Origin: Phyllosticta citribraziliensis
Lineage: Eukaryota
NCBI RefSeq assembly: GCF_038025025.1
Contig: NW_027117339.1
Span: 1,488,001 to 1,552,000, forward strand
DNA length: 64,000 nt
Direction of reading: 5' to 3'
Shown: positions 27,392 through 45,325 of the stretch, piece by piece
How positions within the stretch are numbered: the stretch's first letter is position 1
How the letters are laid out: each line of letters begins with the position of its first letter
Program-made: the position numbers and the translations under genes
Notes under the pieces: model-generated
What the model was told of the DNA's origin: nothing
The model's database searches: none
The model's input: only the letters and a program-made list of their open reading frames with translations

Positions 27392-27456
27392 GGCTGGCAG
27401 TGGTAGACCTGGGGGTGACTTGGGGAGGGTGGTGTAGAGGGAGGGAGCCGACTCGG

Positions 27457-27989
27457 ATCAGATAGGGCGGGGCATGGGCAAAATATATTGGACTCGGTCA
27501 GGTCAGGCCGGCGTCGAGTGAAGTTGACGGAGTGAAGCAAAGAATTGGGCCGGGACCGAGCTGATCGGAAACGGAAGTGGTCCTCGTGGAGTGGTACGGA
27601 CGAGAGGGGAGCGAAAAGAGGAAAGGCCGACGTCTCGACACGGAGGATGCCAGCCACTGGGGCGATATCGGTCGGGGGAGAGGGCCAATGGAGAAGGCAC
27701 AACGGGCACGCCTGGCCGAATCTAATCTGATCTGGGCATTGATGGCCGCTGTCTCTGCTTTTTTCAACATTTCTTTTTTTTTTTTTCAAGATGATTTTTT
27801 CAGACGTCCCTCTCGCTTACGCTCTACTCTGCTCACGGGGGACCCAACGCCCGGCTCGTTCGAGCCAAACCGCCCTCATGATCGCGATGGTCGCCCAAGA
27901 AACGCCAACGCGGACAAGCTTCTCAGCCTCATCCACGTCCACGGCTCAAGCTACTCGCCAAGGACGGCTCGGCTAGTTGTCTTATCGAT
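27457..27989. promoter_or_regulatory. Candidate SreA-type iron-responsive GATA elements
   Basis: ATCAGATAG (27457-27465), TAATCTGAT = ATCAGATTA on the minus strand (27723-27731), and TTATCGAT (27982-27989). All are near-matches to ATCWGATAA and lie upstream of the siderophore transporter. Confidence 0.55.
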
Positions 27990-28544
27990 CAATCTGGCAG
28001 GCCCTGGGTCTGACAGAAGCCATGAATGGAATTCCTCTGCAGTCGATCCATCGCTGTCCAGATGTCCTGTCGTGGTGGCAACCGTGCGTGTCGTGGCGAG
28101 GGCTGGCTCAGGTCCCGACAGGACGACCGTGGCGTCCGCCGTGTGCGTGGCCACGGTCAAGTGTTGCCCAAGTCGTGCGGACGCCGCCCGGAGCCCTCGT
28201 CCGTCAACCTACCCCATCCGAGCTCACGCCCTTTTATTCGCTGGACGACGTGCCTATTCCAGCATCCAAGTCGCGTCCTGCTGACGACGGGCCATTGATC
28301 CTGGAGGTCCAGGCGCGCCGACCAAAAGCCTCAAATGCTTCCCTCCGCCGGCCACCGACTGCAACATACCACCCTCCGTCCGGCTTCTCCCGCTCAACCT
28401 CCCTCACGCGTCGACTTGGGGTCGTCCATGGGGCTGATGCTTCAACAATCCAATACTCGCGCTGGCTGCTTACGCGCGAACCAAATCCCTGGCCCGTGGA
28501 CCCATCTCCGCCGACAGGAACATTAAACGACTCCGCATGAACCC

Positions 28545-29662
28545 CTATGCCTCGAGCTTCGAGAACCCCTGCTCTGGCGGCTGCAGCCAGTTGCGCTCGT
28601 CATACTCGTTGCGTCCCTCGATCACGTGGAACGTGTATATGAAGCGGCTCTTGCCGCTCAGGTTCTTCTCGCTCTTGTGCAGCACGTTGCCGTGGATCAG
28701 GACCAATGTGCCCGCCTTGACCTCGCCCAGCGTGTACTCGACCTCGCTCTGGATGTCGGTCGTGGCCTTGGAATCCACGTCACCTCCTTCACGCAGCGCC
28801 TGAATGTCTGGGGGAAATTGTGCCCCGTCGTGGTTTTCTACGAAGCCCGTGCCACCCTCGGGCATCCTCACAAAACGCTGCTTGACCGGGCTCGTCTTAT
28901 GCGTGCCCTTGGCGAAGCTCAAGCACCCATTGTTGACCGTGCAGTCCTCGAGAGCATACCAGAAGCCCACGGCGCTCGGCGGATTTGTGTAGAGGAAAGG
29001 TGAGTCTTGATGAGGTGGCACACGGCCCCCGATCTCTGGCTGCTTGCAAATCACCATGGACTGCAGCACGCGGGGGTCGTGGAAGCCCAGCGCCTTTGCA
29101 ATGGCAGCATTTCTATCCGAGAGCGAGATGCGGCGGAACGGGGGCGAGAGCTCATGGATGTAGTGGCCAACCTTGTTGATAGCGCGCTCCTTGGGCTTGG
29201 TGAGCTCCCCAGCCTCGTCGAAGGCGTCTGCACTCAAACACATGATGTTAGCCTGACGGCAGCACCGGTACCGGCATAAAAACCCTTCACTCTGAGCAGA
29301 TACCCAATGACACGCCCGTCATTTGTCGCACGCACGCACGCACGCATAGCAGAAACGCACAAACGCTCTCACGCACCTTCCTCGAAAAAGAAGCGAATCT
29401 TGTCCCCGCTCTCCAAGAAGTATTCGTCACCAACGTGATCTTCCTTCTCGCCCGTCGAGAACTTGGTCATGGGGTGGTCTGCAATGGAAAAGTCGCGCAG
29501 CATGGCCTGCGACTCGCCCAGTAGCCCGGCCACGTCGCCGGCGCTCAGCTCGTCGGCCAGTATGAGGTATCCGTTTTGGTCAAAGAAGCGTCGCTGCTCA
29601 GACGTCAATCCGAGCGCAGGGACGCCCGCTGCTCCTTCGTGGGTCGGAGATGCCGTCGTCAT
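28545..29662 (-). CDS. Phytanoyl-CoA dioxygenase family Fe(II)/2OG enzyme (PHYHD1-like)
   Basis: FFDQNGYL, YFLESGDKIRFFFEE, INKVGH, QSMVICKQPEIGG.VPPHQD (HxD), IHGNVLHKSEKN.S.KSR, NWLQ. One intron at ~29230-29375. Confidence 0.92.
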
Positions 29663-30399: not shown

Positions 30400-32264
30400 T
30401 CACGCCTCTCCACCCTTCCTCGCCTTCCACTGCGCCCCGACAGCCCGCCGACCATCCTCCCAGATACTGCGTGGCGGCTCCGTCTCAGCCTCGTGCGCAT
30501 CGATGCGCGGACGCTCCCAGACCAGGTCGGCCTCCTCAGGAGGCACGAAGCGAGTGCGCTTGACAACCTTGAAGCCCACGTAGAAGATGATGCAGACAAA
30601 CACCATGGCGTAGTAGGTGAAAAAAGTGCCAACGTTCCACCAGCCACCCGGCAAAAAGACAGTGTAGCCATATGCAGCAAGAGTGCCAATCATGATGATC
30701 AAGCCTGCCCAGGCGACGTACGGCTGGCCCCAGCCACGGTAGGGAAGGTTGGCGCGGTCGTACCCTTGGACGCGCAGCGCGCGGTAGAAAAAGAGGTAGA
30801 TTAGGCACATGAAGATGTAATTCAGCAGCTGAGCGGCTTGCGTTACATTTGAAAGCCAACGAAGCCCAGATGAAGCGCTGCTCCCAACACTCAGGAAAGA
30901 TAGAAAGGGGAACATCATGGTGACTCCAAAGGCGTAGATGGGCACGCCGCGCCGGGTTACTTTGGCCAGGATCCGCGGTGCGTGGCCGTCCAGCGCCATC
31001 GCGTATAGTGTGCGGGTTGCCGCGTATCTGTGGTCAAATCTTGTCAGACCTATGCTAAAAAAATAAAAAAAAAGCAATTGCTCAGTGGACTGCCTACACA
31101 TAAGAATTGCCTGCGGAGAAGATGCTCGTTACCATCAAGGCGTTGGTCAAATCGGGAAGCACGTCAATGGCCATGTTCTGCATCGCAATCACGTACGGAC
31201 TGGCGCCCGCGTTGCCTGTGTCTCCGTTGCCCAACAGGCGGTTAAGTGTGGGGTCGTTGTATGGTAGCACTATGCCCACGCACAGCGCGCCCAAGATGTA
31301 AAAGCAGCCGAAGCGCCAGTACACCGTCTTAAAAGCGTCCTTGATGGTTTTCCTTGGGAATATGGCTTCGCCACTGACCATACCGATGTACTCGGGTCCA
31401 ACGATCGTGAATGAGCCTTGAAAAAAAGCTCCCAAGAACCCTTCAAATCTGCCAAGGTTCCCGTTGGTCACGTAAGTGGCGAAGGCGCCTGGGTCGCGCC
31501 AGTAGCGGAAGCCGTAGGCGTCGTGCTTTGGGTTACCGCCTACCATTGTGACGAATGTAAAGCCGAAGAGCATGAGGATGAGGACAACCTTGCCTGTTGC
31601 AAGGTAAAATTCCGTCTCGCCGTACCAGCGGACTGTGAAGACATTGATGATCCTTTGGGCGAGATTAGCAGATTGTTTTCTCGTGCGTCTCGGGAGCATT
31701 CACCCGTAGAGAACGATGCAGGCGACACAGACGGCGGCCAGCGGAATGTTGTCGCTCCAGTACTGCAAGACCAGTATTAGGGCCGATATCTCGAATGCTG
31801 TGTCCTTGGTCAGTTTACGGGAGACCTCTGAGTCCCATCTAGTCGAATATACGTATAAGAATGGCCTCATATAAGAAAAAGCAGGCCGAACTGGTGAATC
31901 CCAGGGCAGGGTCAACCCATTGGGACGCCATGCGCATCCATGATCCGCTGACGGGCATAAAGACGACCATCTCTGCCAAAGTGCTGTTGACCAGGGCAAG
32001 AGCGCAACTGTATAGTATGAAGCCGAGAAGCAGACTCGCTGGTCCGCCTTCAATGAGTCCAAAGCCAATGCTCACAAAGAGCGCCGTGCCAATGCTGCCC
32101 CCAATGGCTATCCATTGAATCTGTCGGTTGGTGAGACTGCGGTGCAGTTGGTCGACGGGTTGGGTTGTCGCATTTTCGAGCGAGTCGGATTCGGCAGCGT
32201 ACTGGGGCGCTTCTCGTAGAACGGCATCGCTAGGGCGTTTGGACTTGGCGTTATTCGTATCCAT
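30400..32264 (-). CDS. Amino-acid permease (APC superfamily, yeast amino acid transporter family)
   Basis: LHRSLTNRQIQWIAIGGSIGTALF, YGETEF, GFRYWRDPG, GASPYVIAM, SIFSAGNS, LPYRGWGQPY. Three introns. Confidence 0.92.
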
Positions 32265-33677
32265 GGCGTTGGTGGCTCATGCTGCAAGAGGGCGTCAAAG
32301 GTAGAAATGCAGCGGTGGAGTGGATGAGCGATGCGTGCTGTGCCACATTGGGCACGCAGAGGCGAGTATCAGCGGTGATAGGCCCATGGAGGATTCTTCA
32401 ACGCTCCCAACGCCCTTGGCAAGATAAGGTCGTACACGTAACGGGCGAAGACGACACGACACGGCTTGGGCTCTGTGGGCTGTGGGCTGTGGTTGGTCGA
32501 GCCCGGAGGCGACTTTTGCCGTTCCGCGTCGCGTCGTTACGTTCCTTCCCACCGCTCGATGCTCTTCGACCGCCATGTTCAGGTCGCGCAGTCAGGTCGG
32601 CTCTGACGGCCTCGCTGTGCTCGTCGTCGTCTTCGTTCTTTTGATGGCGATGCATCGGCGTACATGTATCCCGCAGTTCTGGGACCAACGTTGCAGCCCG
32701 TGCTTCCCGATCACTTCGGCCTCGGCTTTTCATCAACGCGCGCGCCGTCTGCAACCTCCCCCTGCCCAGAAATGCATCTTCGGTCGCTCCCAATCGCGCG
32801 CGAGCAGGATGCAGTTGCTTTAAGACGCTACCGCTGGCCTCTTCGACTCCTTGCCGATATCCGGCCAGTCTCAGATTTCATCTACAGCCCTCACCCTCGC
32901 CCTAGGGATGATGCGAACCATCCCCGATCGCGGTCCGAGCACCATCGTCCAACCCCCAACCGCGACCACGAGGGAATCGAAGCTCGCTGACTGCATGGCT
33001 TTCGCTTGCTGATGACTTCTGGAGATCAAGTGCGGGCCGGCCCTTGCGCCACCCTTGCTTCAGAATTCGACATGTTTTGCTGGTGGCGCCGGACAAGCCT
33101 TTGCCAACGCCGAAACAAGAGCTTGTCTTCTTGCATCTTCAGGACCCGGTGTGTCGGGACAGCAATGACGTGTGAGAGCGGAATATTTCCTTGTGTCCCG
33201 CTGCCGTGCTTGGGCCGGCGTGTACTCCTAGTCTGCATCTGGACAACATCAGTCGTTGATTTTGGCGCCCTGCACGTCCATCAAGGCCACCGCCCATGCC
33301 ACTTTCGACTGGCTTCTGGAGTTGGGTGCCGTGAGCCGTGACCGCTCGCGTTGACCGGCCGCGGCCACCGAAGTGAAGAGCGAGGAATGGCCCTCTGGTC
33401 CCTACACCAGACGTGGGAAATTCTGCGCTTAAGCAAGATTTTCAGATCCCTCCTGATACCGCCACGCCGCCTCTTCACTCGCGGTCCGATCGCTCTACCG
33501 AACCTTCACCGATGCCTTCTGGCCCATCAGAACTCGCCATGGACGGCGCCCGTACGCGCACCCCATCGCATCCCCGCGACGTCCGTGGCGACCTCAGGGA
33601 CCCTCTTATCCTCAATCTGGCTGTTTGATGTGCAACTCACGTCATGGTTCATCAAACACCCGCTCAAGCGTGGATTC

Positions 33678-33684
33678 TATATAA
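33678..33684 (+). promoter_or_regulatory. TATA box of the NRPS-like gene
   Basis: TATATAA ~145 bp upstream of ATG 33826, followed by a CT/CA-rich leader. Confidence 0.55.
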
Positions 33685-33825
33685 GCAAACATGGAATCTC
33701 TCGAACATTTGTATATCTTCCCATCATCCAGCAGCCTCTTCCACAATATCCACCATTCCTCGAGAGCTTTAATACCCACCGTAATCGATCTTACAACTCA
33801 AGTCTTGTTTCATTCTTCATAAAAC

Positions 33826-36800
33826 ATGGGATCCATCGCAGATGCCTCCAACTGGGGCTTGTCCCCATATGCCGACAAGCCTCTTCCCCGTCGTGTTGAG
33901 GACATTGCAGCAAAAGACCCTTCGCGGACATGGATGATTATTCCCCGCACATCTGATGTCAACGGCGAATACCGTTACATTACCTTCAGCGAATTCGCCA
34001 AGGCCATTGACGGAGCAGCAAGATGGGTCGAAAAGACCATTGGCATCAACAAGGAGAAGCGCGAAACCATTGCTTACATGGGGTGAGTAAGATGTCTTTG
34101 ATGCAATCGTCTTGGTTTCTAACGCTTGTCCAGAGTAAACGATGTCCGCTACGCCGTCATGATCATCGCCCTGATGAAGGCGAACAAGCGCGTAAGTCTT
34201 GAGTTATCACAAGCATTGTGACAACGCTGACTGCTGAATTAGGCTCTTCTGCTTTCCCTCAAGAACTCTGACGAGGCTCAACTCCACCTCCTCGGCCGCA
34301 CCGACTCTGTGCACTACATGTACAGCGAGGGCATCGAAAAGAACCTCGAGGTGTTTGGCAAGCACTCGACAAATTTGCACGGCCACCAGGTTCCCTCCTT
34401 CGATGAAATGATTGCCGAAGGAGAGCGAGGATCTTTCCAGACCATTGGCGACGAGGGTCTTTTCGAAAAGGTTCTCGTCCTACACACCTCTGGCTCTACC
34501 GGTCTGCCCAAGCCCATTTACGCTACCAACGGCTGGATGGCCGTTACCGATCACCACAAGTACGCCAAGGCGCCCTCGGGAAAGCAGATTGCCGCAGCCG
34601 GCTGGTTGCACAATGATGGCGAACCCATGTTCACCGCTGCTCCCTTTTTCCACACCATGGGTGTCGTGACTCTCCTGAGGACCATTTGGACCGGTCCTCT
34701 TCTCCTTCCTCCTCTCGGAAAGCCCGTCAATGGCGAGCTTGCAAACGATTCGCTGCTTCAAGGAATCGCCAAGGTCGCTCTCATTGCACCCTCCATGCTC
34801 GAGGACATGAGCGAGACTGAAAAGGGTCTCAAGGCCCTCAGCACTATTCACCAGGTCTACTTTGGCGGTGCCCCCTTGGGCAAGGAGGCCGGCGACCGCG
34901 TCCTCAAGGTCACCAAGCTCAACACCCTCATTGGCTCTACTGAAGCCTCCCTGATTCTCAACTGTGCCCCTGAAGACCCTCACGATTGGCAATACTTCGA
35001 CTGGCATCCTGTGTCTGGAACTGTCATGGAAGATGCTGGCGAGGGTCTCTATGAGCAAGTCATCAAGCCCATTGCTGACCCCAGGTTCTTGGGTGTCTTC
35101 TACACGTTCCCGGAACTCACTGAGTGGAGGACCAAGGACTTGTTTGAGCCTCATCCTACCAGGAAGGGTCTCTGGCGCTACAGGGGTCGCCGTGACGATG
35201 TGATTGTCTTCAGCAATGGCGAAAAGTTCAACCCCGTCTCTTTTGAAAAGGTTGTGGAGGATCACCCTCTGGTCAAGGGCGCCGTCGTCGTTGGCGAGGG
35301 TCGCTTCCAGCCCGGTCTGCTGGTTGAGCCTGACTGGTTGAAGCTTGGTGATGGTTACGACCTGAACGCCCTCTTGGACGAAATTTGGCCGGCTGTCGAG
35401 CTCGCCAACAAGGATGCTCCTTCCCACGGTCAAGTTTGGAAGAACAAGATTGCCTTCACCAAGAAGGACAAGGAATTTGCTCGTAGCCCCAAGGGCTCCA
35501 TTCAGCGTCGCGCCACTGTCGGTGTTTTCTCTGCTGAAATCGATGCCCTCTACTCCAGTGAGGGCTTTGACGAGGAACTCGGCAAGCTCGGCAAGGATGC
35601 GGACAAGGACACTGCCCGCGCTTTCGTCCGCAAGGCCTTTGGTCTGGTCCTTCCCGCTTTCAAGGACGAGCACTCTGATGACCAGGACATCTTCGATCTC
35701 GGCGTCGACTCGCTTCAGGTCATGGCTCTTGCCAGCGCCTTCAGCCACGCTTTGAAGTCTGACAAGGCCGACCGTGGTGCTGCCGTCGTCCCTCGCGATG
35801 TTTACGGCAACCCTACCGTCAACAAGCTTGCCATTGCCTTGATTGCCAAGCTCTCCAACTCGGAGGCCACCCAGCCTTCTCGCCCCCGCGAGGAGGTCAT
35901 GTTCGAGATGATTAACAAGTACACTGAGGATCTTCCCAAGACCGCTGCTCCTCTGCCTGCTTTGCCCGAGAAGCAGACTGTCGTCATTACTGGTTCTACC
36001 GGCTCTCTGGGCAACTACATGCTCGAGGACTGCATCAACTCCCCCAACGTTGCCAAAATATATTGTCTCAACCGCTCCGACTCTGCCGAGGCTCGCCAGG
36101 CCAAGAGCTTTGCTGAGCGTGGCATCAAGGCCGACTTCAGCAAGGTCACCTTCCTGCGCACCGACTTCAGCTGGGACCGCTTCGGTCTGGCCAGTGAGAT
36201 TTACGAGGAGCTGTTGAACTCTGTCACGACCTTTATTCACAACGCCTGGGCTGTCGACTTCAACCACGCCCTCGAGTCTTATGAGCCGACTCACATTGCC
36301 GGTACCCGCCGCGTCGTGGACTTCAGCTTGCAGTCCAAGTTCCGTGCCCACATCACCTTCATCTCGTCCATTGCCTCGGTTGGCAACTGGCCTTCCATTG
36401 GCTCTGGTCCCGTACCCGAGACCTTCATCGAGAACGACAGCGCACCGTTCCCTCAGGGCTACGGTGAGTCCAAGCACGTGGCAGGTCGCATTCTTGCTAT
36501 TTCCGCGCAACAAGCCGCTGTCCCCGTTAGCATTATGCGCTGCGGCCAGCTCGCCGGATCTCGCGAGGAGGGAGGTGTGTGGAACCGCCACGAGTGGCTC
36601 CCCAGCATCGTCCACACCAGCAAGAACATGGGCATCGTTCCCCAGAACCTTGGAAACCAGGACAATGTAGACTGGGTTCCCATGGACGCTGCGGCCCGCA
36701 CCGTTCTCGAGTCTACGACCAACCGCCTTCAGGTCCAGTCTTCCAAGACCCTCGACGTCTTCCACGTCGTCAACCCGCGCGTCGTCTCCTGGAACACGCT

Positions 36801-37089
36801 TGTCCCTGTCATCAAGGACTTTTACAAGAAGACCCAAGGCGTCGACCTCAAGGCCGTGCCTTTTGACGACTGGATGGCCGCGCTCAAGGCCACCCCGCTC
36901 ACCAAGGAGGAAGTCGAGAAGAAGCCCGGTGTCAAGCTGCTTGACTTCTACGAGGGTCTGCGCGCCCCTGGTGGTGCCCTTCCTCCCATGAACACCACGC
37001 ACACATGCGAATTCTCCGAGTGCTTGAGGACGCTGAACGCGGTTGACGGACCGCTCTTTGAGAACTGGTGCAAGCAGTGGGGTTTCTAG
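33826..37089 (+). CDS. NRPS-like A-T-R enzyme (fungal carboxylic acid reductase type)
   Basis: A domain: LHTSGSTGLPKP, FFHTMG, IGSTE, WRTKDLF, GRRDD...NGEK, RSPKG. T domain: FDLGVDSL. R domain: VVITGSTGSLG, HNAWAVDF, FISS, GYGESK. Introns ~34084-34133 and 34191-34242. Confidence 0.93.
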
Positions 37090-37600
37090 ATTGTCGATGG
37101 TTGACTTGAAGATGTGGCATTTTGCATGCGCAAGGCGTTTTTGATACCATTAGATGTGGTTTTGTTTCTGGCATTTCATCATAGCGTTCCCAGATTGTCT
37201 TTGCTTTGATCGCACAGTATTTTAGCATTTCCAAAGATTTATTCATACACTTCAAAACTGCAAGTCTACTGCCAGTAATTCATGTTTCGAGATCCGACAC
37301 TCTTTCTTGAAGTGCACACTCACAACGATGTGCTAGTGACCGACTCTCCAAGAGAACTCAAGATCTATAGATCTATTCCTCACACTGGCCTCCCAATTGC
37401 GTGGCAAATTCCTAGACCCTGAAGCCACAAACCATATCTTGACCCCGGGCATGACTAATGTCCTGCAAGGACATCACCTCTGTCCGTCCGAACGTTCCGA
37501 AAGAAGTGCCGACAGGGGTATCTCGCATCATATCACCAGACGCTTCCACGCCAACGCTCTCTCTACCTCTACATCAACCCTACTCATCCACAAAAGAAAG

Positions 37601-39881
37601 ATGTCTGAGCGCACCCATCCAACCGAGGACCAAGTAAACAGCGTGTTGCAATCAAAGAAGCGACACCGAGGCAAAGCAGCATGCTACCCATGCAACCAGC
37701 GCAAAGTGAAATGCGACATGAAGTAAACATCCCTAGACTTGGCCCCCAGGAGAAAGATCTGCACTAACGAAAAAGCTTAGCCAACCTTGTCTGACGTGCT
37801 TAAAAAGAGGTCACCCCAACATTTGCACCTACGGCCTCAAGCGGAAGCACTCTCCGGAACCTGGTCATGATGGGACGCCTAAACGCCTCGAGCGCGAGCC
37901 TTCGGCCGCCGCGGCGCCGGGCTCGCCTCAGGTTGCGTTGGATGCTCCTCAGGCTGCTGGAGACGTGGAGAGTCATGCCAATCCGGACTCGTTCTTGGGA
38001 GAGAACGCGGCCGCGCCATATCTTTCTCGTAGGTTGGGCGATGCGGAGGGCACGATCAAAGACGATCTGGTGCCGCTCTTGGGCTTGTGCAATGGGTCCA
38101 ATCAGTATCCGTTTATGAATGAGGGCGAAGGCAGCGATCGCGTGAAAGAATTGAAGAGTACGCTGCCGACGCAGCACGAAGTTGTCAGGTAACGGCTTTT
38201 GTCCAAAGTTCTGACTGCAAGCTGATTGATGTGACCAGATTCTACCATTTCTACCGGTCCATATCTTTTCCACTCAGTCCGATCGTGACTGACATTGACA
38301 CTTTCGAAGTATTCCTCAGTCGTTACCTTGAGGGCTGCGCCGGAAGCGACCTCAGCGTTGCTATCCCTGGCGGTAACCGAGGAGCAGCTCACGTTGGTCT
38401 CCTGCTGGCCATTCTGGCCGTCGGCGCGCAGCTATCTGATCTGAGTGCCCAAGAGAGACGCCGCATCTCTCGAGACTTTGGTATTCGTAGTTTAAACAGA
38501 ATCCGAATCAGTGCTAACATTTGAGCCAGCTCGTCGATCATTCCACGCGCAGCGTCTAGCGAATTTCTTACTCCGCCCCTCGCCAACGAGCCTGCAGGGT
38601 CTGCTCGTCCTGGCCGCTTTTTTGCAAAATGATGGCAATTCGGACGCCGCCTGGAGCCTTCTGGGAACCATTGTTCGACTGGCCCAGAGCATTGGGCTTT
38701 CTCCCTCGTGGGGAGTTGCTCGACGAATATCAGACTCGGAAAAGGAGTCGAACAAGAAGCTCTGGTGAGTGATGAATTCTCGAGTCATCATTCTGAATTG
38801 ACGACAAACACTTGCTGAAATTGCTTGCGAAATCTCAGGATGACTATCCAACAACAAGACACCATCCTATCTCTCTGCTACGACCGGCCCACAGTGCTTG
38901 CCTACTCGCCCCAACTCGAACTCCAAGAACTCGCCACAAACTCCAAGCTCAACTTCCAAGAAGTCATGTGGCGCATCACCACCGCAACGCTGCGCATCAT
39001 GGCGCAAAGGCTCTCGATTCCCAACGCCACCACCATGCACCAGCACATCCAGGAGCTCGAGCAAATCACATTGCACTCGGCAGACCACTTGCGCGACAAA
39101 CAGCACTGCGTCAAGCTCGACCAACGCATCCAAAACCTCGCGATACGCACACACATATCGTTCCTCGTGTCCATCGTCTGCCGGCCGACCTTCTCAAACT
39201 CCGCCCGCGCCGCCCTCGATGAGTCGGAGCAGCAGGCGGCGTACTTGGCGGCGCGAGGCAAGGCGGCGCTCGTAGACGTGCTCAAGGCGTTTCTCGACCT
39301 GCAGGCGCTGACCATCTACCCGCTCAGGTCGTGGGTCATGATCCACGAGGTTCTGAGCTCGGCGCTGCTCCTGGCGGCGCTCGGCGAGACCAAGAAATCG
39401 GAAGAGTTGGGGGTGCTGCAGCAGCGATTGATTGACGTTCTGGCGTCGAACTCGTCAACAGAGGGCAGTAACAGCAGCAACAGCGGGAGTGCACATTCAC
39501 TGTCGTCGTCGCATCTGAGGGCGCTCAGGATTTTGGAGCGATTGGCGCATGGCGAGCCGCCGTCGGGACGGAGCACGACCACTGCTGCTGTTGAAAACCA
39601 GCACCACGAGCCCGAGGATACTGCATCCAGGATCGCGGCTGAGCCATCACAGACCTATATCAATACCTGGAGTGGTGGTGTCTTTGAGGAGTCTGCATCT
39701 TTCCCTGTTAATCTGGATTCATCGCCCCTTGCGTTTCTGGATTCAGTCATATGGGGTAGGTTCCCCCAATTGCAAAGGATTCACTTCGTGGCTGACATTC
39801 ATCACAGAGAGGAGCGGCCTGGATAGTGATGGCGATTTTCTTGAATTCGATCTGCTGAACTGGAGTGGAGGGGCGCAGTAA
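37601..39881 (+). CDS. Zn(II)2Cys6 transcription factor with fungal-specific middle region; SdrA-like by position
   Basis: ACYPCNQRKVKCD-(intron)-PCLTCLKRGHPNIC. AWSLLGTIVRLAQSIGL and QQDTILSLCYDRP. Acidic/aromatic C-terminus DGDFLEFDLLNW. About five introns. Adjacent to pad1/fdc1, as sdrA is in Aspergillus niger. Confidence 0.85.
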
Positions 39882-40397
39882 GCTGCAAGTCCTGCACTCT
39901 GTTTGGGTATTCTGCGGTCTGGTTGTTGGTGGCCATCTAAAGGAACGAACACGCTCGGGGACTGATGGCTCCTCCGAGATTGCGTCCACATGGTTTCGTG
40001 AGTCGTGAACGAATGCTCCTCATCTCTATCCCTTGGGCGTGTTTGAATGCTCCTTGTCCCTCCACATTGATGGGGTTTCGTCTACCCTTCTATCCACGCG
40101 CTGTCCACACACTTGAATCCTCTGTCTCATGTTATCCTCGCAAGTGGGAAGAAGTTCTCCAGGAAGTCTCGGAACTTGCGTTGTTTGAATCCAAGGTAGA
40201 CTTTTTGCAGGATGCCTCTCGAGATGACTGGAGCCTGATACTGCCGCCTGTCCTACTCAAGGGCAGATTCGGATCTTTGGCTGCTGAAGGGAACATTGCC
40301 GTACTCGGAGGCCCAAGTTCTTGTGAAGCTGCCAGCTCCTGCTTTCGTTTTCCGAGATGAAGGACGAATCCGGGTGATCAATGCCTTAGATTTCATC

Positions 40398-41147
40398 TCA
40401 AGCTTTCCGGAAGCTCTCCCAGCGCTCAAAGTTGTCCAGATGGATACCAAAGCAGTCCAGCATCCTGCCCACACTCTGGTCAATGAGATCCTGGACGGAC
40501 TTTGGACGAGTATAGAACGCCGGGACAGGAGGAAATATGGTAGCCCCCGCTCGCTCCAAGAACGCCATATTGTCCAGATGAATTGCGCTGAGCGGCGTCT
40601 CTCTCACAGCAAGAACGAGGCGCCTGCGCTCCTTCAGACAGACATCCGCAGAGCGCGAAATGAGATCATCGCAGTAGCCAGCGCGAACAGCCGCCAGCGT
40701 CTTCATGGAACACGGCACGATGATCATGCCGTCGTGCAGGAAGCTGCCGGACGACGACGGCGCCGCCATGTCGCGCAGCGCGTAGCTCTTGGTCGCCAGC
40801 GCCTGCACCTCGTCCCAACTCCTGTCCGTCTCGTACTTCATCGTTGCGAGCGCCCACTTGGACATGACCAGGTGCGTCTCGATTCCAACTTCGCGCAGAA
40901 TCTCGAGCATCCGGATTGCGTAGACGGTTCCTGTCGCTCCTGTCACGCCGACGACGATGCGTTTTGGCCGGGAATCTGATGATGTTGTAAGGTTTCGGGA
41001 GGCGAGATGTCCATAGTTTGAAGCGAAGTGGTTTGTTTTGGTAAGAAGCGGTGAAGATGTATGAGAAGAAAAGTTTTGAGTCTGCGATGTGGGCGCGAAG
41101 CGCGTGGATTGCCTCGCAAGGCGGATGCACGACCGACAAGTCCACAT
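40398..41147 (-). CDS. PAD1: Flavin prenyltransferase Pad1/UbiX with mitochondrial-type presequence
   Basis: RIVVGVTGATG, ETHLVMSKW, SSGSF, IVPCSMKTLA, RSADVCLKERRRLVL..RETPLS.IHL.NM, PPVPAFY. Likely ATG at 41147; another in-frame ATG exists at 41363. Confidence 0.95.
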   Translation of the reverse strand: MWTCRSCIRLARQSTRFAPTSQTQNFSSHTSSPLLTKTNHFASNYGHLASRNLTTSSDSRPKRIVVGVTGATGTVYAIRMLEILREVGIETHLVMSKWALATMKYETDRSWDEVQALATKSYALRDMAAPSSSGSFLHDGMIIVPCSMKTLAAVRAGYCDDLISRSADVCLKERRRLVLAVRETPLSAIHLDNMAFLERAGATIFPPVPAFYTRPKSVQDLIDQSVGRMLDCFGIHLDNFERWESFRKA

Positions 41148-41264
41148 TCTCAATGATGGCGTATGATATGCGGAAACCAGATTCAACGAAGCGGATTCTT
41201 GTCTTTTTCTACCCCCTGACAGCGGCGAGCGATGTTCGGCGCCGACTCCTGAGTCTTCATTGCC

Positions 41265-41381
41265 TGCCGATGCCGATGCCGATGCCGATTCCGAGGTGGT
41301 GAGACCCGGGACCGGGTCGTTTATTATTCGACACCTTTGGGTCTCCTGAACGGCCCGAACCATGATTTAGACGGGTATCCG
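41265..41381. promoter_or_regulatory. CGG/CCG-rich elements in the pad1-fdc1 bidirectional promoter
   Basis: (TGCCGA)4 at 41265-41288, inverted repeat GACCCGG-GA-CCGGGTC at 41303-41318, CGGCCCG at 41351-41357, CGG-N4-CCG at 41372-41381. Confidence 0.45.
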
Positions 41382-41538
41382 AGCGTCGATTCGTGCTTTA
41401 AAGTGGTGTGCCGGTGGCTTTGAAATGCCATGGCTTGAACTCCACTATAATACTTGACTGACCTCCCCCCAGAACTGCGCAAACAATTTCTCAGACTTGC
41501 TGATTTAGTTACCCCGTTGGAATTAGAGAGGAAAGAAG

Positions 41539-43187
41539 ATGTTTGCTCAACTGACCAAGACGGCGTCGAGACATGCGTACCGACGAACGCTCCCCATGGC
41601 GAGCTCATCAGTCCGGTATATCCATGGAAAAACCTCGCCCCAAGACACGCCAGACATGAATTTCCGGTCATTCGTGGACGCTCTCAAAGCCGATGGCGAC
41701 ATTGCCGAGATCAACTCAGAGAAGGACCCGAACCTCGAAGTCGCAGCAATCATCCGCCGGTCCTGCGAGACGGACGACAAAGCAGCACTCTTCAACAACG
41801 TCAAGGGGGCGCAAGACGGACTGTTCCGCATCCTGGGAGGTCCTGGTTCGCTGAGACATGAGAGCAAGGGCAAATATGGCAGACTGGCGAGGCATGTTGG
41901 TCTGCCACCGGACGCCAACATGCGACAAGTCTTGGACAAGATGCTGTCTGCGAAGGGAGCGGAGCCAAAACCACCGCGGGTAGTCGAGACGGGAGCCTGC
42001 AAGGAGAACAAGCTGTTTGGCGACCAAATCGATCTTGAGAAGCTTCCGACGCCGCTCATCCACAAGAGCGATGGTGGAAAATACATCCAGACGTACGGCA
42101 TGCACGTCTTCAAAACTCCCGACGGCAAGTGGACCAACTGGTCCATTGCACGCGCCATGGTACATGATAAGAACCATCTCGTTGGGCTCGTCATCCCGCC
42201 GCAGCACATCTGGCAGATTTGGGACATGTGGAGGAAGGAGGGCAAAGACGTGCCGTGGGCGCTGGCGTTTGGTGTGCCACCTGCAGCAATCATGGCCTCG
42301 AGCACGCCGATGCCAGAGTCCGTCAGCGAGGGAGAGTATGTCGGTGCCATGACTGGGACTGCCATTGATGTGGTCAAGTGCGAGACCAACGACCTGTTCG
42401 TTCCGGCCAACTCGGAGATTGTGCTTGAGGGAACGCTGTCGACGACAGAAACAGCTTCAGAGGGCCCATTTGGCGAAATGCATGGCTACGTCTTCCAGGG
42501 AGACTCGCATATGTGTCCAAAGTAAGTCTTTTGGCAGTTGTGCAATCTGTATCTCGAGTTAACTCTTCTCCCAGGTTCAAGGTGGACTGCATAACTCACC
42601 GCAACGACGCCATCCTGCCCGTCTCATCATGTGGCAAATTGACCGACGAAACCCATACCATGATCGGCTCTCTCAACGCTGCGGAGGCACGCCAGCTGTG
42701 TCAGGAGAGCGGTCTTCCCATCACAGACGCCTTCATGCCCTTTACTTCTCAAGTAACATGGATGGCGTTGAGAGTGGACACCGCCAAGCTGAGGGACATG
42801 AAAACAGACTCGAAGACTTTCAGCAAGCGCGTTGGCGATCTCATTTTCAACAACAAGGTCGGATACACGACTCACCGCATCATCCTGGTCGGCGACGACA
42901 TCGACGTGTATGACGACAAAGCGGTCATGTGGGCCTTCAGCACAAGGTGCAGGCCTCACGATGATGAAATCTTTTACCACGACGTCAGGGCTTTCCCTTT
43001 GATCCCGTACAATGGTCACGGGGCCCACGACAAGGTGAAGGGGGGAAAAGTCGTCAGTGATGCGCTGATGCCAGTCGAATACACGACAGGCAAGAACTGG
43101 GAGGCTGCTAGCTTCGAAGAGAGTTACCCCGAGGAGGTGAAGCAGAAAGTACTTTCGGAGTGGCGTGCCATGGGCTTCGAACAGTAA
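41539..43187 (+). CDS. FDC1: prFMN-dependent cinnamic/ferulic/sorbic acid decarboxylase Fdc1 (UbiD family)
   Basis: [70 protein letters not shown]. Intron 42522-42574. Confidence 0.96.
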
Positions 43188-43581
43188 TGTTGCGTTGGAA
43201 TAGATTTCGATTATAACATGAATTCCATTGAGATTGGTTAGCAGAATTTTGACGAAGAGTTCCCAGCGTCTTTGGTAATCAAGGCTTAGCAATAAGTGAC
43301 AGCAAGCGATTTTGGGAGTTTCCGCCAGTAGGAGTTTGAATGCTCCCTTTCTCCCGTTCTCCTTTTTTCTATCTCCAATATATGCTTGAATACGGTTCAG
43401 TAGTCTGGCCCCCGGTAGCTCGAGTGATGTTAAACATAGCGTACAGAGCGGAGAGATAGACTCTTGCTTCTGATGATTGTAAGCTTAGCCGTTCAGGACA
43501 AATCAATCGAGATGGCTCACATCGACAAGGACAGTAACTCATCCTGTAGCATCGCACTCCTCTCGGCGATAACCCCTCTTC

Positions 43582-44676
43582 TTAAACAAGTCGATTCCGA
43601 ATTTCCTCGCCCGCCAGGTGTCTGCGCAAGTTTTCCACCGTTTGCGGCCACCAATCGCGGAACGTCTTTTCGCTGGCATACCCAGAATGTGGTGTCAAAA
43701 TCACTTCGCTCTTCCCCTCGGACGCACCCCAATTTGTCGTGCGCCACTTGCTGTCCTTGGGCAACGGCTCATCCCAAAACACGTCCAAGCCTGCGCCACG
43801 AATCTTTCCTTGGTCCAGAGCCTCGTACAATGCGTCCTCGTCGATTAATGGACCGCGCGACGTATTTATGAGCAAGGCAGACGGCTTCAACAACGCAAGC
43901 TCGTTAGCACCGACGATGCCCCTCGAGCGATCAGAAAGGACGTAATGTAAGCTCAGGATATCCGCCTCCTTCAACAGGGCCTCCTTAGACGGAGCGACTT
44001 GGAAAGCACCCTTTGGAAGACCGCTCTCTTTGGCATGGCGGTCCGCCTCCTCTTGAGTCAAGTGTACGCTCCATGCCAAAACGCGCATGCCGAAAACTGA
44101 GTACGCGATCTTGGCGGACTCGGTTCCCAGTTTTCCCAGACCTAAGGATGCGAAAGTCTTGCCCCCTAGGTCGACGTGAAGCGGTAGTTCGTGCTGCCAG
44201 CCACCTTGCTTCACGATTCGATCATCGCGCGTAACAGTGTTTGTGAGAGCCAGTATGAGAGCCCAATTGTGTTGGGTGGTGTGAGCGGGCGCCTTTGGCA
44301 CATCTGGGTCTGCTGGCTCGGCTTGGACGGGCTTCGTCCCCGCGACAATGATTTCCGATTCTTTGAAGGCGTCCAGGTCCAGCGCGAGGTTACGCATACC
44401 GGTTGTGAGCAGCAGGCGGAGGTTTGGTAGCGCGGCGACTATCTCTCGGGGGAAAGGCGTTCGTTCCCGTATGGTAGAAATGACCTCAAATGGTCGGAGG
44501 CGCTCGATGAGCTCCTGGGGATTCTTCTTGGGGTCAATGGTATCCGGAAAATAGGATACGTCAAGATCCGATAGAGGAATGTCTCGAAGGTACTGCGGTG
44601 CGTGGTCTTGCCAGTCGTCGAGAATCGCAAGCTTGACAGGCCGATCGAACTTTGTGGGCGAAGTTATCGTGGACAT
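43582..44676 (-). CDS. D-isomer-specific 2-hydroxyacid dehydrogenase
   Basis: LAILDDWQ, RERTPFP, LLTTGMRN, LGLGKLG (Rossmann fold), INTSRG, DVFWDEP, TPHSGY (Arg/Glu/His catalytic residues). No introns; ATG at 44676. Confidence 0.9.
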   Translation of the reverse strand: MSTITSPTKFDRPVKLAILDDWQDHAPQYLRDIPLSDLDVSYFPDTIDPKKNPQELIERLRPFEVISTIRERTPFPREIVAALPNLRLLLTTGMRNLALDLDAFKESEIIVAGTKPVQAEPADPDVPKAPAHTTQHNWALILALTNTVTRDDRIVKQGGWQHELPLHVDLGGKTFASLGLGKLGTESAKIAYSVFGMRVLAWSVHLTQEEADRHAKESGLPKGAFQVAPSKEALLKEADILSLHYVLSDRSRGIVGANELALLKPSALLINTSRGPLIDEDALYEALDQGKIRGAGLDVFWDEPLPKDSKWRTTNWGASEGKSEVILTPHSGYASEKTFRDWWPQTVENLRRHLAGEEIRNRLV

Positions 44677-45325
44677 TTTGTAGAAGTGACAATTGGTAAA
44701 GTGGGCGAAATAGTGCTCAGTGAAGGCAAGCCAAGGAAGCGCGGAAGTACCTTTGTTGTAAAAGAAAGAAGATTTGAGAGGAGAGTGAAGGCATGTTTGC
44801 TGTAAAGCCGTCGCAAAGTGGGGTAAAGATTCACCCGCGGGGAAGATGACGTGACGCCAGGTACGGAACACGGCACGGAAGGGTACCGGTAACTTCGCAT
44901 TGTGATCGCCGTAGCATGTTAGGATGGCCGATTTCATCTTGTGCCGATAGCTTGACTTGTCTGCGACCTGCGCCTAGAAACCCTGTAACACTGTAAGTCT
45001 TCGATTAAGTCGAAACAGCGAGTTAGCCGCATCAAGATCTTGGACCACACTGGCCCAGAAGAAGAAATGGCTGTTGGATCATGGAGTTCATCCGATTCGA
45101 CAAATTGATGCTAGCGAGTCCAACAAAATTAATGAGATTTAAGACTGCCGTGGTTGTTGAGGACTCAAAGATTCTTAGTGGTAGTCTTTCGCGATGCTCA
45201 AGATGGCACATGTGAACAAATTTGGTGGGAATGGACAACATCAAAGATGCCGTCAGTCGTATGCCAATTTTGTCTTCGGAAATGCGTATTGGGAATATGC
45301 AAAGGGAGGGTCATCAAGTCGATTC

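What the first reader, a model, noticed from the sequence alone, without database searches (positions are those of the whole stretch)
30400..44676. Pad1/Fdc1 decarboxylase module embedded with a carboxylic-acid-reductase NRPS-like gene, a permease and a 2-hydroxyacid dehydrogenase: candidate extended aryl-acid cluster
Seen: six contiguous genes, in order amino-acid permease (-), A-T-R NRPS-like (+), Zn2Cys6 TF (+), PAD1 (-), FDC1 (+), D-2-hydroxyacid dehydrogenase (-). Known: the TF/padA/cdcA triad of Aspergillus niger decarboxylates cinnamic and sorbic acid to styrene and pentadiene. Fungal A-T-R enzymes reduce aryl and aryl-acrylic acids to aldehydes. Inference: two different chemistries for the same substrate class sit side by side. 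They could form one regulon that splits cinnamate-type acids between decarboxylation and reduction, with the permease and dehydrogenase handling an aromatic amino acid or aryl-pyruvate/lactate arm. I do not know of this combination being described, but cannot verify that here.
Basis: partly seen in the sequence, partly recalled or inferred. Interest (0 to 1): 0.72.

Follow-up and report, generated by a model that had tools for sequence, protein, structure and literature searches.

The report
Cinnamate decarboxylase genes beside a carboxylate reductase
A Phyllosticta fungus carries the well-known three-gene kit for decarboxylating cinnamic and sorbic acid right next to a carboxylic-acid reductase, but this neighbourhood is confined to one genus and nothing yet shows that the genes work together.

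Summary
RNA contigs identical to the window confirm 9 of 12 introns.

The core is ordinary. PAD1 (flavin prenyltransferase) and FDC1 (UbiD-type decarboxylase) are transcribed divergently. FDC1 keeps every catalytic and pocket residue of A. niger Fdc1 that I checked. Beside them lies a Zn2Cys6 regulator whose relatives sit next to fdc1 in other fungi.

The A-T-R gene is a type III fungal carboxylic acid reductase (CAR), of the NcCAR/Fub8 kind.

The CAR-TF-PAD1-FDC1 order holds in 16 of 18 Phyllosticta assemblies (6 species). In the other 2 the genes lie 10-12 gene models apart.

Outside the genus the link disappears:
- In Diplodia, Macrophomina, Aplosporella and Saccharata (9 of 9 assemblies) the CAR and FDC1 counterparts lie on different contigs.
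- Three metagenomic fungal fdc1 loci hold no CAR and no 2-hydroxyacid dehydrogenase.
- The passages I read on the Aspergillus and Penicillium clusters list no CAR.

RNA contig depth gives no hint of co-expression.

Verdict: known modules lying side by side in one lineage. A shared aryl-acid regulon is chemically plausible but unsupported. The permease and the dehydrogenase look like bystanders.

The parts
30400..32264 (-). Amino-acid permease (APC/YAT type), 562 aa. Exons 30400-31027, 31098-31651, 31703-31797, 31853-32264. Probably a neighbour, or at most a promoter partner of the CAR.
   Evidence: Pfam AA_permease E=1.9e-43, 7.9e-32 and 1.1e-18 on three pieces. Three CT..AC joints appear in RNA contigs X1 and X3. 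The spliced frame is open.
32265..33825 (.). Divergent intergenic region, 1.56 kb, between the permease and the CAR. RNA contigs cover all of it.
   Evidence: X1 record 2 runs unbroken from 31853 to 34081. No Pfam family was found on frames there. A contig spanning two genes does not show a single transcript.
33826..37089 (+). Carboxylic acid reductase of A-T-R architecture (type III fungal CAR, NcCAR/Fub8-like), 1053 aa. Introns 34082-34132 and 34192-34242.
   Evidence: Pfam domains. Both joints are seen in 3 of 4 runs laid. The model is identical to P0250. The R domain matches 8AEP at E=2.6e-94. Key residues are H242, E432, S595, Y845 and K849.
37601..39881 (+). Zn2Cys6 transcription factor (SdrA-like by position and family), 665 aa in my model. 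Introns 37723-37780 and 38189-38238 are predicted. Introns 38481-38529, 38765-38838 and 39756-39807 are seen in RNA.
   Evidence: Six-cysteine motif after splicing. Fungal_trans E=1.8e-15. RNA joints. Relatives lie beside fdc1 in L004 and L005.
40398..41147 (-). PAD1/UbiX flavin prenyltransferase, 249 aa, single exon, with an N-terminal presequence-like stretch.
   Evidence: Pfam Flavoprotein E=1.9e-44. PDB 6qlg 'Flavin prenyltransferase PAD1, mitochondrial' E=1.7e-75. A 1-nt difference at 41199 in a relative's RNA argues that the frame upstream of 41147 is not coding.
41148..41538 (.). Shared 391-bp divergent promoter of PAD1 and FDC1. It holds a run of CCGATG-like hexamers at about 41267-41296.
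   Evidence: Sequence and CCG-spacing listing. Function not tested.
41539..43187 (+). FDC1/CdcA prFMN-dependent phenylacrylic/sorbic acid decarboxylase, 531 aa from the first ATG (492 aa from the internal Met used in the public annotation). Intron 42522-42574.
   Evidence: PDB A. niger Fdc1 4za4 E=1.1e-141 (exon 1) and E=1.6e-96 (exon 2). Catalytic and pocket residues are conserved. Joint seen in X10. Splice worked out.
43582..44676 (-). D-isomer-specific 2-hydroxyacid dehydrogenase family protein, 364 aa, single exon, substrate unknown. Probably an unrelated neighbour.
   Evidence: Pfam 2-Hacid_dh_C E=3.9e-43. The best solved relative is a 'PGDH-related protein', 4s1v, E=5.5e-38. It is absent from all 80 fdc1 loci. 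Housekeeping genes follow on its other side.

Best explanation
The stretch holds separate units that lie side by side in the genus Phyllosticta.

Unit 1 is the known weak-acid decarboxylation module. PAD1 makes prenylated FMN. FDC1 uses it to decarboxylate alpha,beta-unsaturated acids (cinnamic to styrene, sorbic to 1,3-pentadiene). The two genes share a 391-bp divergent promoter. The adjacent Zn2Cys6 factor is the likely inducer-responsive regulator, as SdrA is in Aspergillus niger.

Unit 2 is a type III fungal carboxylic acid reductase. It adenylates a carboxylic acid, loads it on its phosphopantetheine arm and reduces the thioester with NADPH to an aldehyde. Its substrate is most likely an aryl-aliphatic or aliphatic acid, not an amino acid. 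It is transcribed divergently from an amino-acid permease.

The 2-hydroxyacid dehydrogenase is an ordinary neighbour at the edge of a block of housekeeping genes.

Shown: gene identities, splicing, conserved active-site residues, and the taxonomic range of the linkage. Inferred: substrates, the regulator's targets, and the independence of the units.
For: FDC1:
- It matches A. niger Fdc1 at E=1.1e-141 and E=1.6e-96.
- R173, E277, E282, N168, H191, E233, I187, Q190, T323, I327, Y394, T395, F437 and L439 (A. niger numbering) are unchanged in the alignments.

PAD1: E=1.7e-75 to solved fungal PAD1.

TF:
- tblastn finds full-length relatives directly beside fdc1 in 2 of 3 informative fungal metagenome loci (L004 E=3e-41, L005 E=3e-31).

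CAR:
- A-T-R domains.
- The R domain matches NcCAR 8AEP at E=2.6e-94.
- The five residues essential in NcCAR (H237, E433, S595, Y844, K848; PMC5826065) have counterparts at H242, E432, S595, Y845 and K849.
- Its solved relatives are reductase domains, bacterial CARs and luciferases. No amino-acid NRPS adenylation domain is among the 11 hits.

Linkage:
- By accession numbers, CAR and FDC1 are 3 apart in 15 Phyllosticta assemblies, 4 apart in 1, and 10-12 apart in 2, out of 18.
- The TF number is next to the CAR number in 13 of 13 assemblies where both are listed.
- In 9 of 9 assemblies of Diplodia seriata (3), D. intermedia, D. corticola, Macrophomina phaseolina (2), Aplosporella prunicola and Saccharata proteae the two genes sit on contigs of different length.
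- The quick tree puts the Diplodia and Macrophomina proteins in one clade with the window's CAR (SH-aLRT 99) and Aplosporella next to it (86).

Literature: the passages I read on the A. niger extended cluster and P. roqueforti SORBUS list no CAR, permease or 2-HADH (PMC6776626 Table 3; PMC9200314).

Expression: CAR contigs have about 10-fold or more the depth of PAD1/FDC1 contigs in all 4 runs laid, from 3 studies.
Against: - The adjacency is kept across six Phyllosticta species. A rough estimate puts a chance adjacency at about 0.5% per lineage: about 8 NRPS-like genes among about 10,300 genes (PMC12506662), within 3 positions either side of fdc1 (my arithmetic).
- The two enzymes plausibly share substrates. 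NcCAR takes cinnamic acid and Fub8 takes trans-2-hexenoic acid.
- The TF lies between the CAR and PAD1, and could serve both.
- A 12-mer, CCCAGAACTGCG, is shared in opposite orientation by the PAD1-FDC1 and permease-CAR intergenic regions, with 0.07 expected by chance.
- The tool states that contig depth is a poor measure of expression, and none of the runs is known to involve an inducing acid.
- In D. corticola and S. proteae the nearest TF relative is itself not beside FDC1 (73 accession numbers away, and on a different contig). So TF linkage is not universal either.
- I could not compare the TF with A. niger SdrA itself.
Confidence: 0.6

Rival explanations
1. The TF controls both PAD1/FDC1 and the CAR, so that cinnamate- or sorbate-type acids taken up from the host are split between decarboxylation (to an alkene) and reduction (to an aldehyde or alcohol). 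The permease and the dehydrogenase serve a side arm.
For: - The CAR-TF-PAD1-FDC1 order is kept in 16 of 18 Phyllosticta assemblies.
- The substrate classes of NcCAR and Fub8 overlap with those of Fdc1.
- Cinnamyl alcohol induces cdcA and padA in A. niger (PMC6776626 Table 3).
- The genes for cinnamate reduction in fungi are said to be still unidentified (PMC12388069, passage).
- A shared 12-mer lies in the two promoters (weak).
Against: - This is one evolutionary origin only. The orthologues are unlinked in 9 of 9 assemblies of 4 other Botryosphaeriales genera.
- P. citrichinensis separates the genes by 10-12 gene models.
- Contig depths differ about 10-fold or more between CAR and PAD1/FDC1 in 4 of 4 runs (weak).
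- No 2-HADH lies near fdc1 in any fetched locus, and only a distant permease paralogue (24-31% identity) in 1 of 3.
- The adenylation domain is not of the amino-acid type.
Confidence: 0.2
2. The CAR belongs to a different, leftward unit. It would be a small biosynthetic or catabolic cluster with the divergently transcribed permease, the PhyH-type dioxygenase (28548-29318) and the MFS transporter (25440-27045), and would have nothing to do with the decarboxylase module.
For: - The CAR and the permease share a 1.56-kb divergent promoter region, and both have high contig depth in X1 (478 and 733) and X3.
- A dioxygenase and a transporter lie just beyond.
- Fub8-type reductases are known from biosynthetic clusters (PMC9605436).
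Against: - In runs X10 and X12 (a relative) the CAR contig is deep (90-97) while no permease contig was laid.
- I could not examine what flanks the CAR orthologue in other genera.
- There is no core synthase (PKS, NRPS or terpene) among the Pfam hits on ORFs of 110 aa or more across the 64-kb window.
Confidence: 0.12
3. A natural UbiD-CAR cascade. The CAR removes the acid formed by the reversible FDC1 reaction. The pair would then run towards carboxylation (alkene + CO2 to enal), as in engineered cascades.
For: UbiD enzymes are reversible. Coupling to a CAR pulls carboxylation in vitro, shown for AnInD and cited there for Fdc1 (PMC8988006, passages). Both enzymes are adjacent here.
Against: [quoted passage not shown]
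- FDC1 carries a conserved presequence-like N-terminus that the CAR lacks, which hints at different compartments.
- The linkage is confined to one genus.
- No physiological source of the alkene is evident.
Confidence: 0.03

Closest known systems
Aspergillus niger cdcA-sdrA-padA cinnamic/sorbic acid decarboxylation cluster (Lubbers 2019, PMC6776626; Plumridge 2010 recalled)
   Same: The same three functions are present: a UbiD decarboxylase, a UbiX/Pad1 prenyltransferase and a Zn2Cys6 regulator, all within 6 kb. FDC1 keeps all the Fdc1 residues I checked.
   Different: Gene order differs. Here the TF lies outside a divergent PAD1-FDC1 pair, whereas in A. niger sdrA lies between the two. The neighbours differ too. 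A. niger has a flavin-reductase-like gene, a membrane protein, a BTB/POZ gene, a carboxylesterase, a glucoamylase and a sulphatase. Here there are a CAR, a permease and a 2-HADH. FDC1 here has a 39-aa presequence-like N-terminus, while CdcA is predicted cytoplasmic. TF orthology to SdrA was not tested.
Saccharomyces cerevisiae PAD1-FDC1 pair
   Same: PAD1 and FDC1 are adjacent, with no regulator between them (PMC6776626 introduction).
   Different: A dedicated Zn2Cys6 factor lies next to the pair here.
NcCAR (Neurospora crassa type III carboxylic acid reductase; R-domain structure 8AEP) and Fub8
   Same: A-T-R order, nearly the same length (1053 aa against the 1052 residues numbered in PMC10168641) and co-linear key residues. 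The R domain matches at E=2.6e-94.
   Different: The substrate is unknown. The adenylation domain was not aligned to NcCAR because no NcCAR sequence was on hand. Automatic names on orthologues point to FUB8 rather than NcCAR.
Penicillium roqueforti SORBUS cluster
   Same: It contains padA, cdcA and sdrA orthologues side by side, with a fast-evolving sdrA: 53% identity to A. niger against 87% and 83% for the enzymes. Here the TF is 72% identical between Phyllosticta species whose CAR and FDC1 are at least 90% identical.
   Different: SORBUS is a 180-kb strain-specific island with several pad and cdc paralogues. The terms NRPS and carboxylic acid reductase do not occur in its main text.
Engineered UbiD + CAR one-pot cascades (PMC8988006)
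   Same: The same two enzyme classes are combined.
   Different: Those are laboratory constructs that use bacterial CARs. Here the pairing is genomic, and nothing shows that it is functional.

Membership tests
Fdc1/CdcA (UbiD family, prFMN-dependent phenylacrylic acid decarboxylase) | UbiD N-terminal, rift and C-terminal domains | tested here: met
   PF20695 E=1.3e-17, PF01977 E=1.2e-60 and PF20696 E=1e-28.
Fdc1/CdcA (UbiD family, prFMN-dependent phenylacrylic acid decarboxylase) | Glu-Arg-Glu catalytic network (E277, R173, E282 in A. niger Fdc1), the metal/phosphate ligands N168, H191 and E233, and the pocket residues I187, Q190, T323, I327, Y394, T395, F437 and L439 | tested here: met
   All are identical in the HMMER alignments to 4za4-type chains. 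The residue roles are recalled. The Glu-Arg-Glu network is named in the PMC5818171 abstract (listing).
Fdc1/CdcA (UbiD family, prFMN-dependent phenylacrylic acid decarboxylase) | Decarboxylation of cinnamic or sorbic acid | not testable with these tools
   Needs an enzyme assay or headspace GC-MS.
Pad1/UbiX flavin prenyltransferase | Flavoprotein fold with close similarity to solved PAD1/UbiX, encoded beside the UbiD gene | tested here: met
   PF02441 E=1.9e-44. 6qlg E=1.7e-75. The gene is divergent from FDC1, with 391 bp between the start codons.
SdrA-type regulator of the decarboxylation cluster | Zn2Cys6 DNA-binding motif plus a fungal transcription factor domain | tested here: met
   The six cysteines are present after removing a predicted 58-nt intron. 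There is no RNA cover there, and the public model (P0273) lacks 9 residues of the motif. PF04082 E=1.8e-15.
SdrA-type regulator of the decarboxylation cluster | Encoded next to fdc1/pad1 in different fungi | tested here: met
   Relatives lie adjacent to fdc1 in L004 and L005. They share a contig with fdc1 in 3 more named species. They are not adjacent in D. corticola or S. proteae.
SdrA-type regulator of the decarboxylation cluster | Sequence orthology to A. niger SdrA, and a requirement for induction of cdcA and padA | not tested
   No SdrA sequence was reachable. The word-based search found only Phyllosticta proteins. The requirement for induction needs genetics.
Type III fungal carboxylic acid reductase (NcCAR clade) | A-T-R domain order with a phosphopantetheine serine | tested here: met
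   PF00501, PF23562, PF00550 and PF07993 in that order. The GVDS serine is at residue 595.
Type III fungal carboxylic acid reductase (NcCAR clade) | The residues essential in NcCAR: H237, E433, S595, Y844 and K848 | tested here: met
   Counterparts are H242 (PFFH), E432 (NGEK), S595, and Y845 and K849 (YGESK). Y and K are aligned to 8AEP. H and E were placed by motif and position only.
Type III fungal carboxylic acid reductase (NcCAR clade) | Close similarity to NcCAR over the whole length, and placement in the clade by phylogeny | tested here: inconclusive
   Only the R domain could be compared (E=2.6e-94). No full-length NcCAR, TtCAR or Fub8 sequence was on hand for a tree.
Type III fungal carboxylic acid reductase (NcCAR clade) | ATP- and NADPH-dependent reduction of aryl or aliphatic acids | not testable with these tools
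   Needs the holo-enzyme and an assay.
Six-gene metabolic gene cluster (one co-regulated unit) | Linkage conserved beyond close relatives, or arisen more than once | tested here: not met
   For CAR and FDC1: linked in Phyllosticta only, and on different contigs in 9 of 9 assemblies of 4 other genera. There is no CAR or 2-HADH in 80 fdc1 loci, of which 3 fungal loci are informative. The permease and 2-HADH were not traced in named genomes.
Six-gene metabolic gene cluster (one co-regulated unit) | Co-expression and dependence on the cluster regulator | tested here: inconclusive
   All six genes are transcribed, but contig depths differ widely. Depth from contigs is unreliable, and no inducing condition is known for these runs.
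D-isomer-specific 2-hydroxyacid dehydrogenase | Catalytic and NAD-binding domains with the Arg/Glu/His catalytic residues | tested here: met
   PF02826 E=3.9e-43 and PF00389 E=1.5e-06. The motifs NTSRG, DVFWDEP and TPHSGY are visible in the alignment to 4s1v. The motif roles are recalled. The substrate is not inferable.

The most novel reading that the evidence does not exclude
In Phyllosticta the SdrA-like factor has recruited a type III CAR into the Pad1/Fdc1 module, giving a natural UbiD-CAR pair. At the least, this would split plant alpha,beta-unsaturated acids between alkene and aldehyde products. At the boldest, the CAR pulls the reversible Fdc1 reaction towards carboxylation (alkene + CO2 to enal). 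That would be a natural counterpart of the engineered CO2-fixing cascades.
Probability: 0.04. Interest if true: 0.8.

Novelty: new member of a known kind. Interest (0 to 1): 0.3.

Why it matters
The core is a further example of the fungal cinnamic/sorbic acid decarboxylation cluster. It is of interest for how plant endophytes and pathogens cope with host phenylpropanoid acids and with preservatives.

If the neighbouring reductase proved to be co-regulated, it would supply the missing gene for fungal cinnamate-to-cinnamaldehyde reduction. A 2025 review calls that gene unidentified (PMC12388069, passage). It would also be a natural precedent for the UbiD-CAR cascades used in biocatalysis.

As the evidence stands, the adjacency is a genus-specific neighbourhood and a cheap, testable lead. 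It is not a new system.

Tried and rejected
- No whole genome is held for the window, so paralogues of fdc1, pad1 or the CAR elsewhere in the genome could not be looked for.
- Three look-ups of earlier findings returned nothing.
- A six-frame regular expression for Zn2Cys6 missed the TF because the motif is split by an intron. Reading the frames found it.
- One Pfam call failed on a wrong frame and was repeated with stop-to-stop frames.
- The word-based homologue search with TF exon 5 found only 5 Phyllosticta proteins. The exhaustive search with P0273 defined the family, with 97 representatives at E<=1e-30. It carries no names, and only 10 representatives could be named.
- Promoter comparison found no CGG/CCG arrangement shared by the PAD1-FDC1 promoters of the window, L002 and L004. 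There are only two isolated 12-mers, one shared with L002 and one with the permease-CAR region. Neither is decisive.
- The two protein-atlas look-ups gave only generic family names.
- The careful phylogeny did not finish in 300 s, so the quick tree is what I cite. Saccharata's placement is unresolved there.
- RNA: stretches without cover (37710-38223 in all four runs; the permease in X10 and X12) prove nothing. Only 4 of 21 listed runs were laid.
- The metagenome scan gave only 5 fungal-like fdc1 loci out of 80. Two are too short to inform (L001, L003).
- I considered formate dehydrogenase for the highly covered 2-HADH. I rejected it because formate dehydrogenases are weak hits (E about 1e-16 to 1e-17) compared with PGDH-related proteins.
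- The supplement of the Gluck-Thaler and Slot survey of ferulic-acid-decarboxylase-anchored clusters could not be read, because bioRxiv supplements are closed. Its main text does not list the cluster contents. It may bear on whether a CAR neighbour has been catalogued.

Full report
OBSERVATION

The six genes are real and lie at the stated coordinates. Pfam on stop-to-stop frames gives:
- AA_permease on three minus-strand pieces (30400-32276).
- AMP-binding, AMP-binding_C_3, PP-binding and NAD_binding_4 on 34243-37089 (+).
- Flavoprotein on 40398-41366 (-).
- UbiD_N, UbiD and UbiD_C on 41527-43187 (+).
- 2-Hacid_dh and 2-Hacid_dh_C on 43582-44973 (-).

The regulator was missed by a six-frame pattern search because its Zn2Cys6 motif is interrupted by an intron. 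After splicing, the six cysteines are in place. A Fungal_trans domain is present.

Of 21 public runs listed I laid four. X1 and X3 are spliced contigs 100% identical to the window. X10 and X12 are RNA-seq of a relative about 90-95% alike. They give:
- three permease introns
- both CAR introns
- three of five TF introns
- one intron downstream of the 2-HADH stop codon
- the FDC1 intron, in X10 only

The first two TF introns are my predictions, because there is no RNA cover at 37710-38223.

Final models are listed under 'parts'. My CAR model equals protein P0250 letter for letter. P0250 is a Phyllosticta citribraziliensis record. The public FDC1 model (492 aa) is the C-terminal part of mine.

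SURROUNDINGS

I scanned ORFs of 110 aa or more.
- To the right of the 2-HADH lie housekeeping genes: TMEM234, UTP15, mitochondrial L22, an RRM/HAT protein, RF-1 and gamma-glutamyltranspeptidase.
- To the left of the permease lie a PhyH-type dioxygenase, an MFS transporter, GH16 and further genes.
- No PKS, NRPS or terpene synthase appears among the Pfam hits in the window.

WHAT THE PARTS ARE

FDC1
- Exon 1 matches A. niger Fdc1 (4za4 and 22 further entries of the same sequence) at E=1.1e-141. Exon 2 matches at E=1.6e-96.
- In those alignments R173, E277, E282, N168, H191, E233, I187, Q190, T323, I327, Y394, T395, F437 and L439 are unchanged. The residue roles are recalled.

PAD1
- It matches solved fungal PAD1 (6qlg) at E=1.7e-75.

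CAR
- Its reductase domain matches 8AEP at E=2.6e-94. PMC10168641 (passages) identifies 8AEP as the R domain of the type III Neurospora crassa CAR.
- PMC5826065 (passages) names H237, E433, S595, Y844 and K848 as essential in NcCAR. The window's protein has H242 in PFFH, E432, S595 in GVDS, and Y845 and K849 in YGESK.
- Its 11 solved relatives at E<=1e-5 are reductase domains, two bacterial CARs and firefly luciferases. No amino-acid-activating NRPS domain is among them.
- PMC9605436 (passages) places NcCAR, TtCAR and Fub8 in one clade. Its substrates are aryl-aliphatic and aliphatic acids, and trans-2-hexenoic acid for Fub8.
- PMC5129534 (passages) uses cinnamic acid as the NcCAR model substrate.

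2-HADH
- It is nearest to 'PGDH-related' proteins of unknown substrate (4s1v, E=5.5e-38).

Permease
- It could not be typed further.

IS THE NEIGHBOURHOOD CONSERVED?

No fungal genome collection was available. I therefore used the accession numbers and contig lengths that the protein collection stores. I assumed that GenBank protein accessions of one assembly follow genome order. That is an inference from usual submission practice. The contig lengths are direct.

Within Phyllosticta there are 18 GenBank assemblies of 6 species.
- CAR and FDC1 numbers differ by 3 in 15 assemblies, by 4 in 1, and by 10 and 12 in the two P. citrichinensis assemblies.
- The TF number is next to the CAR number in 13 of 13 assemblies where both are listed.

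Outside the genus, the best CAR and FDC1 homologues lie on contigs of different length in 9 of 9 assemblies:
- Diplodia seriata (3)
- D. intermedia
- D. corticola
- Macrophomina phaseolina (2)
- Aplosporella prunicola
- Saccharata proteae

A quick maximum-likelihood tree of 29 proteins was built (the careful search was unfinished).
- It shows two paralogous clades in Botryosphaeriales.
- The window's CAR groups with the Diplodia, Macrophomina, Botryosphaeria, Neofusicoccum and Lasiodiplodia proteins used above (SH-aLRT 99). Aplosporella lies next to that group (86).
- Saccharata is unresolved.
- In the genomes where I have both paralogues, neither shares FDC1's contig length.

A scan of JGI metagenome contigs with FDC1 exon 1 kept 80 loci. 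Five are fungal-like (63-70% identical), and three have usable flanks.
- L002: PAD1, FDC1, then a distant permease paralogue (24-31% identical), a PLP decarboxylase and a HET gene.
- L004: a CAAX protease, PAD1, FDC1, a Zn2Cys6 TF and RPL38.
- L005: FDC1 and a Zn2Cys6 TF.
- tblastn with the window's proteins found no CAR and no 2-HADH in any of the 80 loci. TF relatives appear in L004 (E=3e-41) and L005 (E=3e-31).

The exhaustive search with the public TF model defined a family of 97 representatives at E<=1e-30. I could name 10 of them.
- The D. corticola relative (48% identical) is on FDC1's contig but 73 accession numbers away.
- The S. proteae relative is on another contig.

So the regulator family tends to travel with fdc1, though not always. 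The CAR does so only in Phyllosticta.

LITERATURE
- Lubbers 2019 (PMC6776626; passages and all of section 11) lists the A. niger extended cluster: flavin-reductase-like, membrane protein, BTB/POZ, cdcA, sdrA, padA, carboxylesterase, glucoamylase, sulphatase. There is no CAR, permease or 2-HADH.
- The SORBUS paper (PMC9200314, passages) does not contain the terms NRPS or carboxylic acid reductase.
- Five full-text searches gave no paper describing such a linkage: sdrA/padA/cdcA, Fdc1 + Pad1 + CAR + gene cluster, Phyllosticta + NRPS-like, UbiD + CAR, and ferulic acid decarboxylase + NRPS-like.
- A systematic survey of ferulic-acid-decarboxylase-anchored clusters exists (10.1101/184242, passages). 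Its cluster contents are in a supplement that I could not read.

EXPRESSION

All six genes are covered by RNA contigs. Contig word depths:

| Run | Permease | CAR | TF | PAD1/FDC1 | 2-HADH |
|---|---|---|---|---|---|
| X1 | 733 | 478 | 17 | 32 | 1326 |
| X10 | none laid | 90 | 6-8 | 9 | 31 |

X3 and X12 show the same ordering. The tool warns that contig depth is a poor measure of expression, and none of the runs is known to be an induced condition. I take this only as no sign of co-expression.

In X1 the PAD1-FDC1 contig is unspliced and spans the promoter. Spliced FDC1 RNA is therefore shown in only 1 of 4 runs.

MECHANISM AND VERDICT

The best reading (0.6) is a set of independent units side by side:
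- the known TF/PAD1/FDC1 decarboxylation module
- a type III CAR, perhaps sharing a promoter with the permease
- a bystander dehydrogenase

A Phyllosticta-specific joint regulon (0.2) is chemically sensible and cheap to test. It rests on one evolutionary event. My rough estimate of a chance adjacency is about 0.5% per lineage, from about 8 NRPS-like genes among about 10,300 genes (PMC12506662). That is not rare across the many fungal lineages that carry fdc1.

A leftward CAR cluster (0.12) and a natural carboxylation cascade (0.03; PMC8988006) are not excluded.

The amino-acid or aryl-lactate arm has no support.

Noticed in passing
window 41539-41655: FDC1 has a 39-residue N-terminal extension before the canonical MNFRSF start. 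It is rich in Arg, Ser and Thr, and its first acidic residue is at position 36. Similar extensions occur in Diplodia, Aplosporella and several unnamed homologues. In a relative's RNA, sequence similarity begins exactly at this first ATG. The public annotation of this species starts at the internal Met. This suggests mitochondrial targeting, unlike A. niger CdcA, which is predicted cytoplasmic.
   Followed up: partly
window 37601-37810: The public TF model (P0273, 656 aa) differs from mine by a 9-residue gap that removes two cysteines of the Zn2Cys6 motif. It carries no Zn_clus hit, whereas the P. capitalensis orthologue does. A 58-nt GT..AG intron (37723-37780) restores the full motif. No RNA covers this spot.
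   Followed up: partly
window 31853-34081 and 32932-33029: One RNA contig runs unbroken across the whole permease-CAR intergenic region. A relative's run shows a weakly supported 98-nt GT..AG joint at 32931/33030 (depth 2.4). This is possibly a long, spliced 5' leader of the CAR that overlaps the permease promoter.
   Followed up: no
window 43237-43581: The 2-HADH transcript contig carries a 51-nt intron (43470-43520, CT..AC) downstream of its stop codon. It extends to within about 50 nt of the FDC1 stop codon. The two convergent genes nearly touch at their 3' ends.
   Followed up: no
window 41267-41296: Five tandem CCGATG-like hexamers lie in the PAD1-FDC1 divergent promoter / PAD1 leader, which places CCG triplets every 6 nt. 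They are a possible zinc-cluster binding array. A 1-nt difference at 41199 in the relative argues that this stretch is non-coding.
   Followed up: partly
window 41468-41479 and 32672-32683; L002 about 670-681: The 12-mer CCCAGAACTGCG occurs in the PAD1-FDC1 promoter and, reverse-complemented, in the permease-CAR intergenic region (expected 0.07). Another 12-mer, TAAAGTGGTGTG (window about 41399-41410), is shared with the PAD1-FDC1 intergenic region of L002 (expected about 0.04).
   Followed up: partly
named protein records: In both P. citrichinensis assemblies the CAR and FDC1 accession numbers are 10 and 12 apart instead of 3. No TF of 535 aa or more from that species appeared in the search. 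This points to a rearrangement or insertion between the CAR and the decarboxylase module in the closest relative.
   Followed up: no
L002:3593-9158: In an unrelated fungal contig, PAD1-FDC1 is followed by an amino-acid permease (a distant paralogue of the window's) and a PLP-dependent decarboxylase (PF00282, E=7.8e-107). This is a second, independent case of a permease next to fdc1. It is probably coincidence, given the size of the permease family.
   Followed up: partly
window 25440-29318 and 6260-7603: A PhyH-type dioxygenase (28548-29318, -) and an MFS transporter (25440-27045, -) lie just left of the permease. A carboxylesterase lies 33 kb from FDC1. A. niger's extended cluster also has a carboxylesterase neighbour, but the distance here makes a link unlikely.
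   Followed up: no
protein clusters: The TF evolves much faster than the enzymes. It is 72% identical between Phyllosticta species whose CAR and FDC1 fall in one 90% cluster. This mirrors sdrA at 53% against padA at 87% and cdcA at 83% between Penicillium roqueforti and A. niger.
   Followed up: partly
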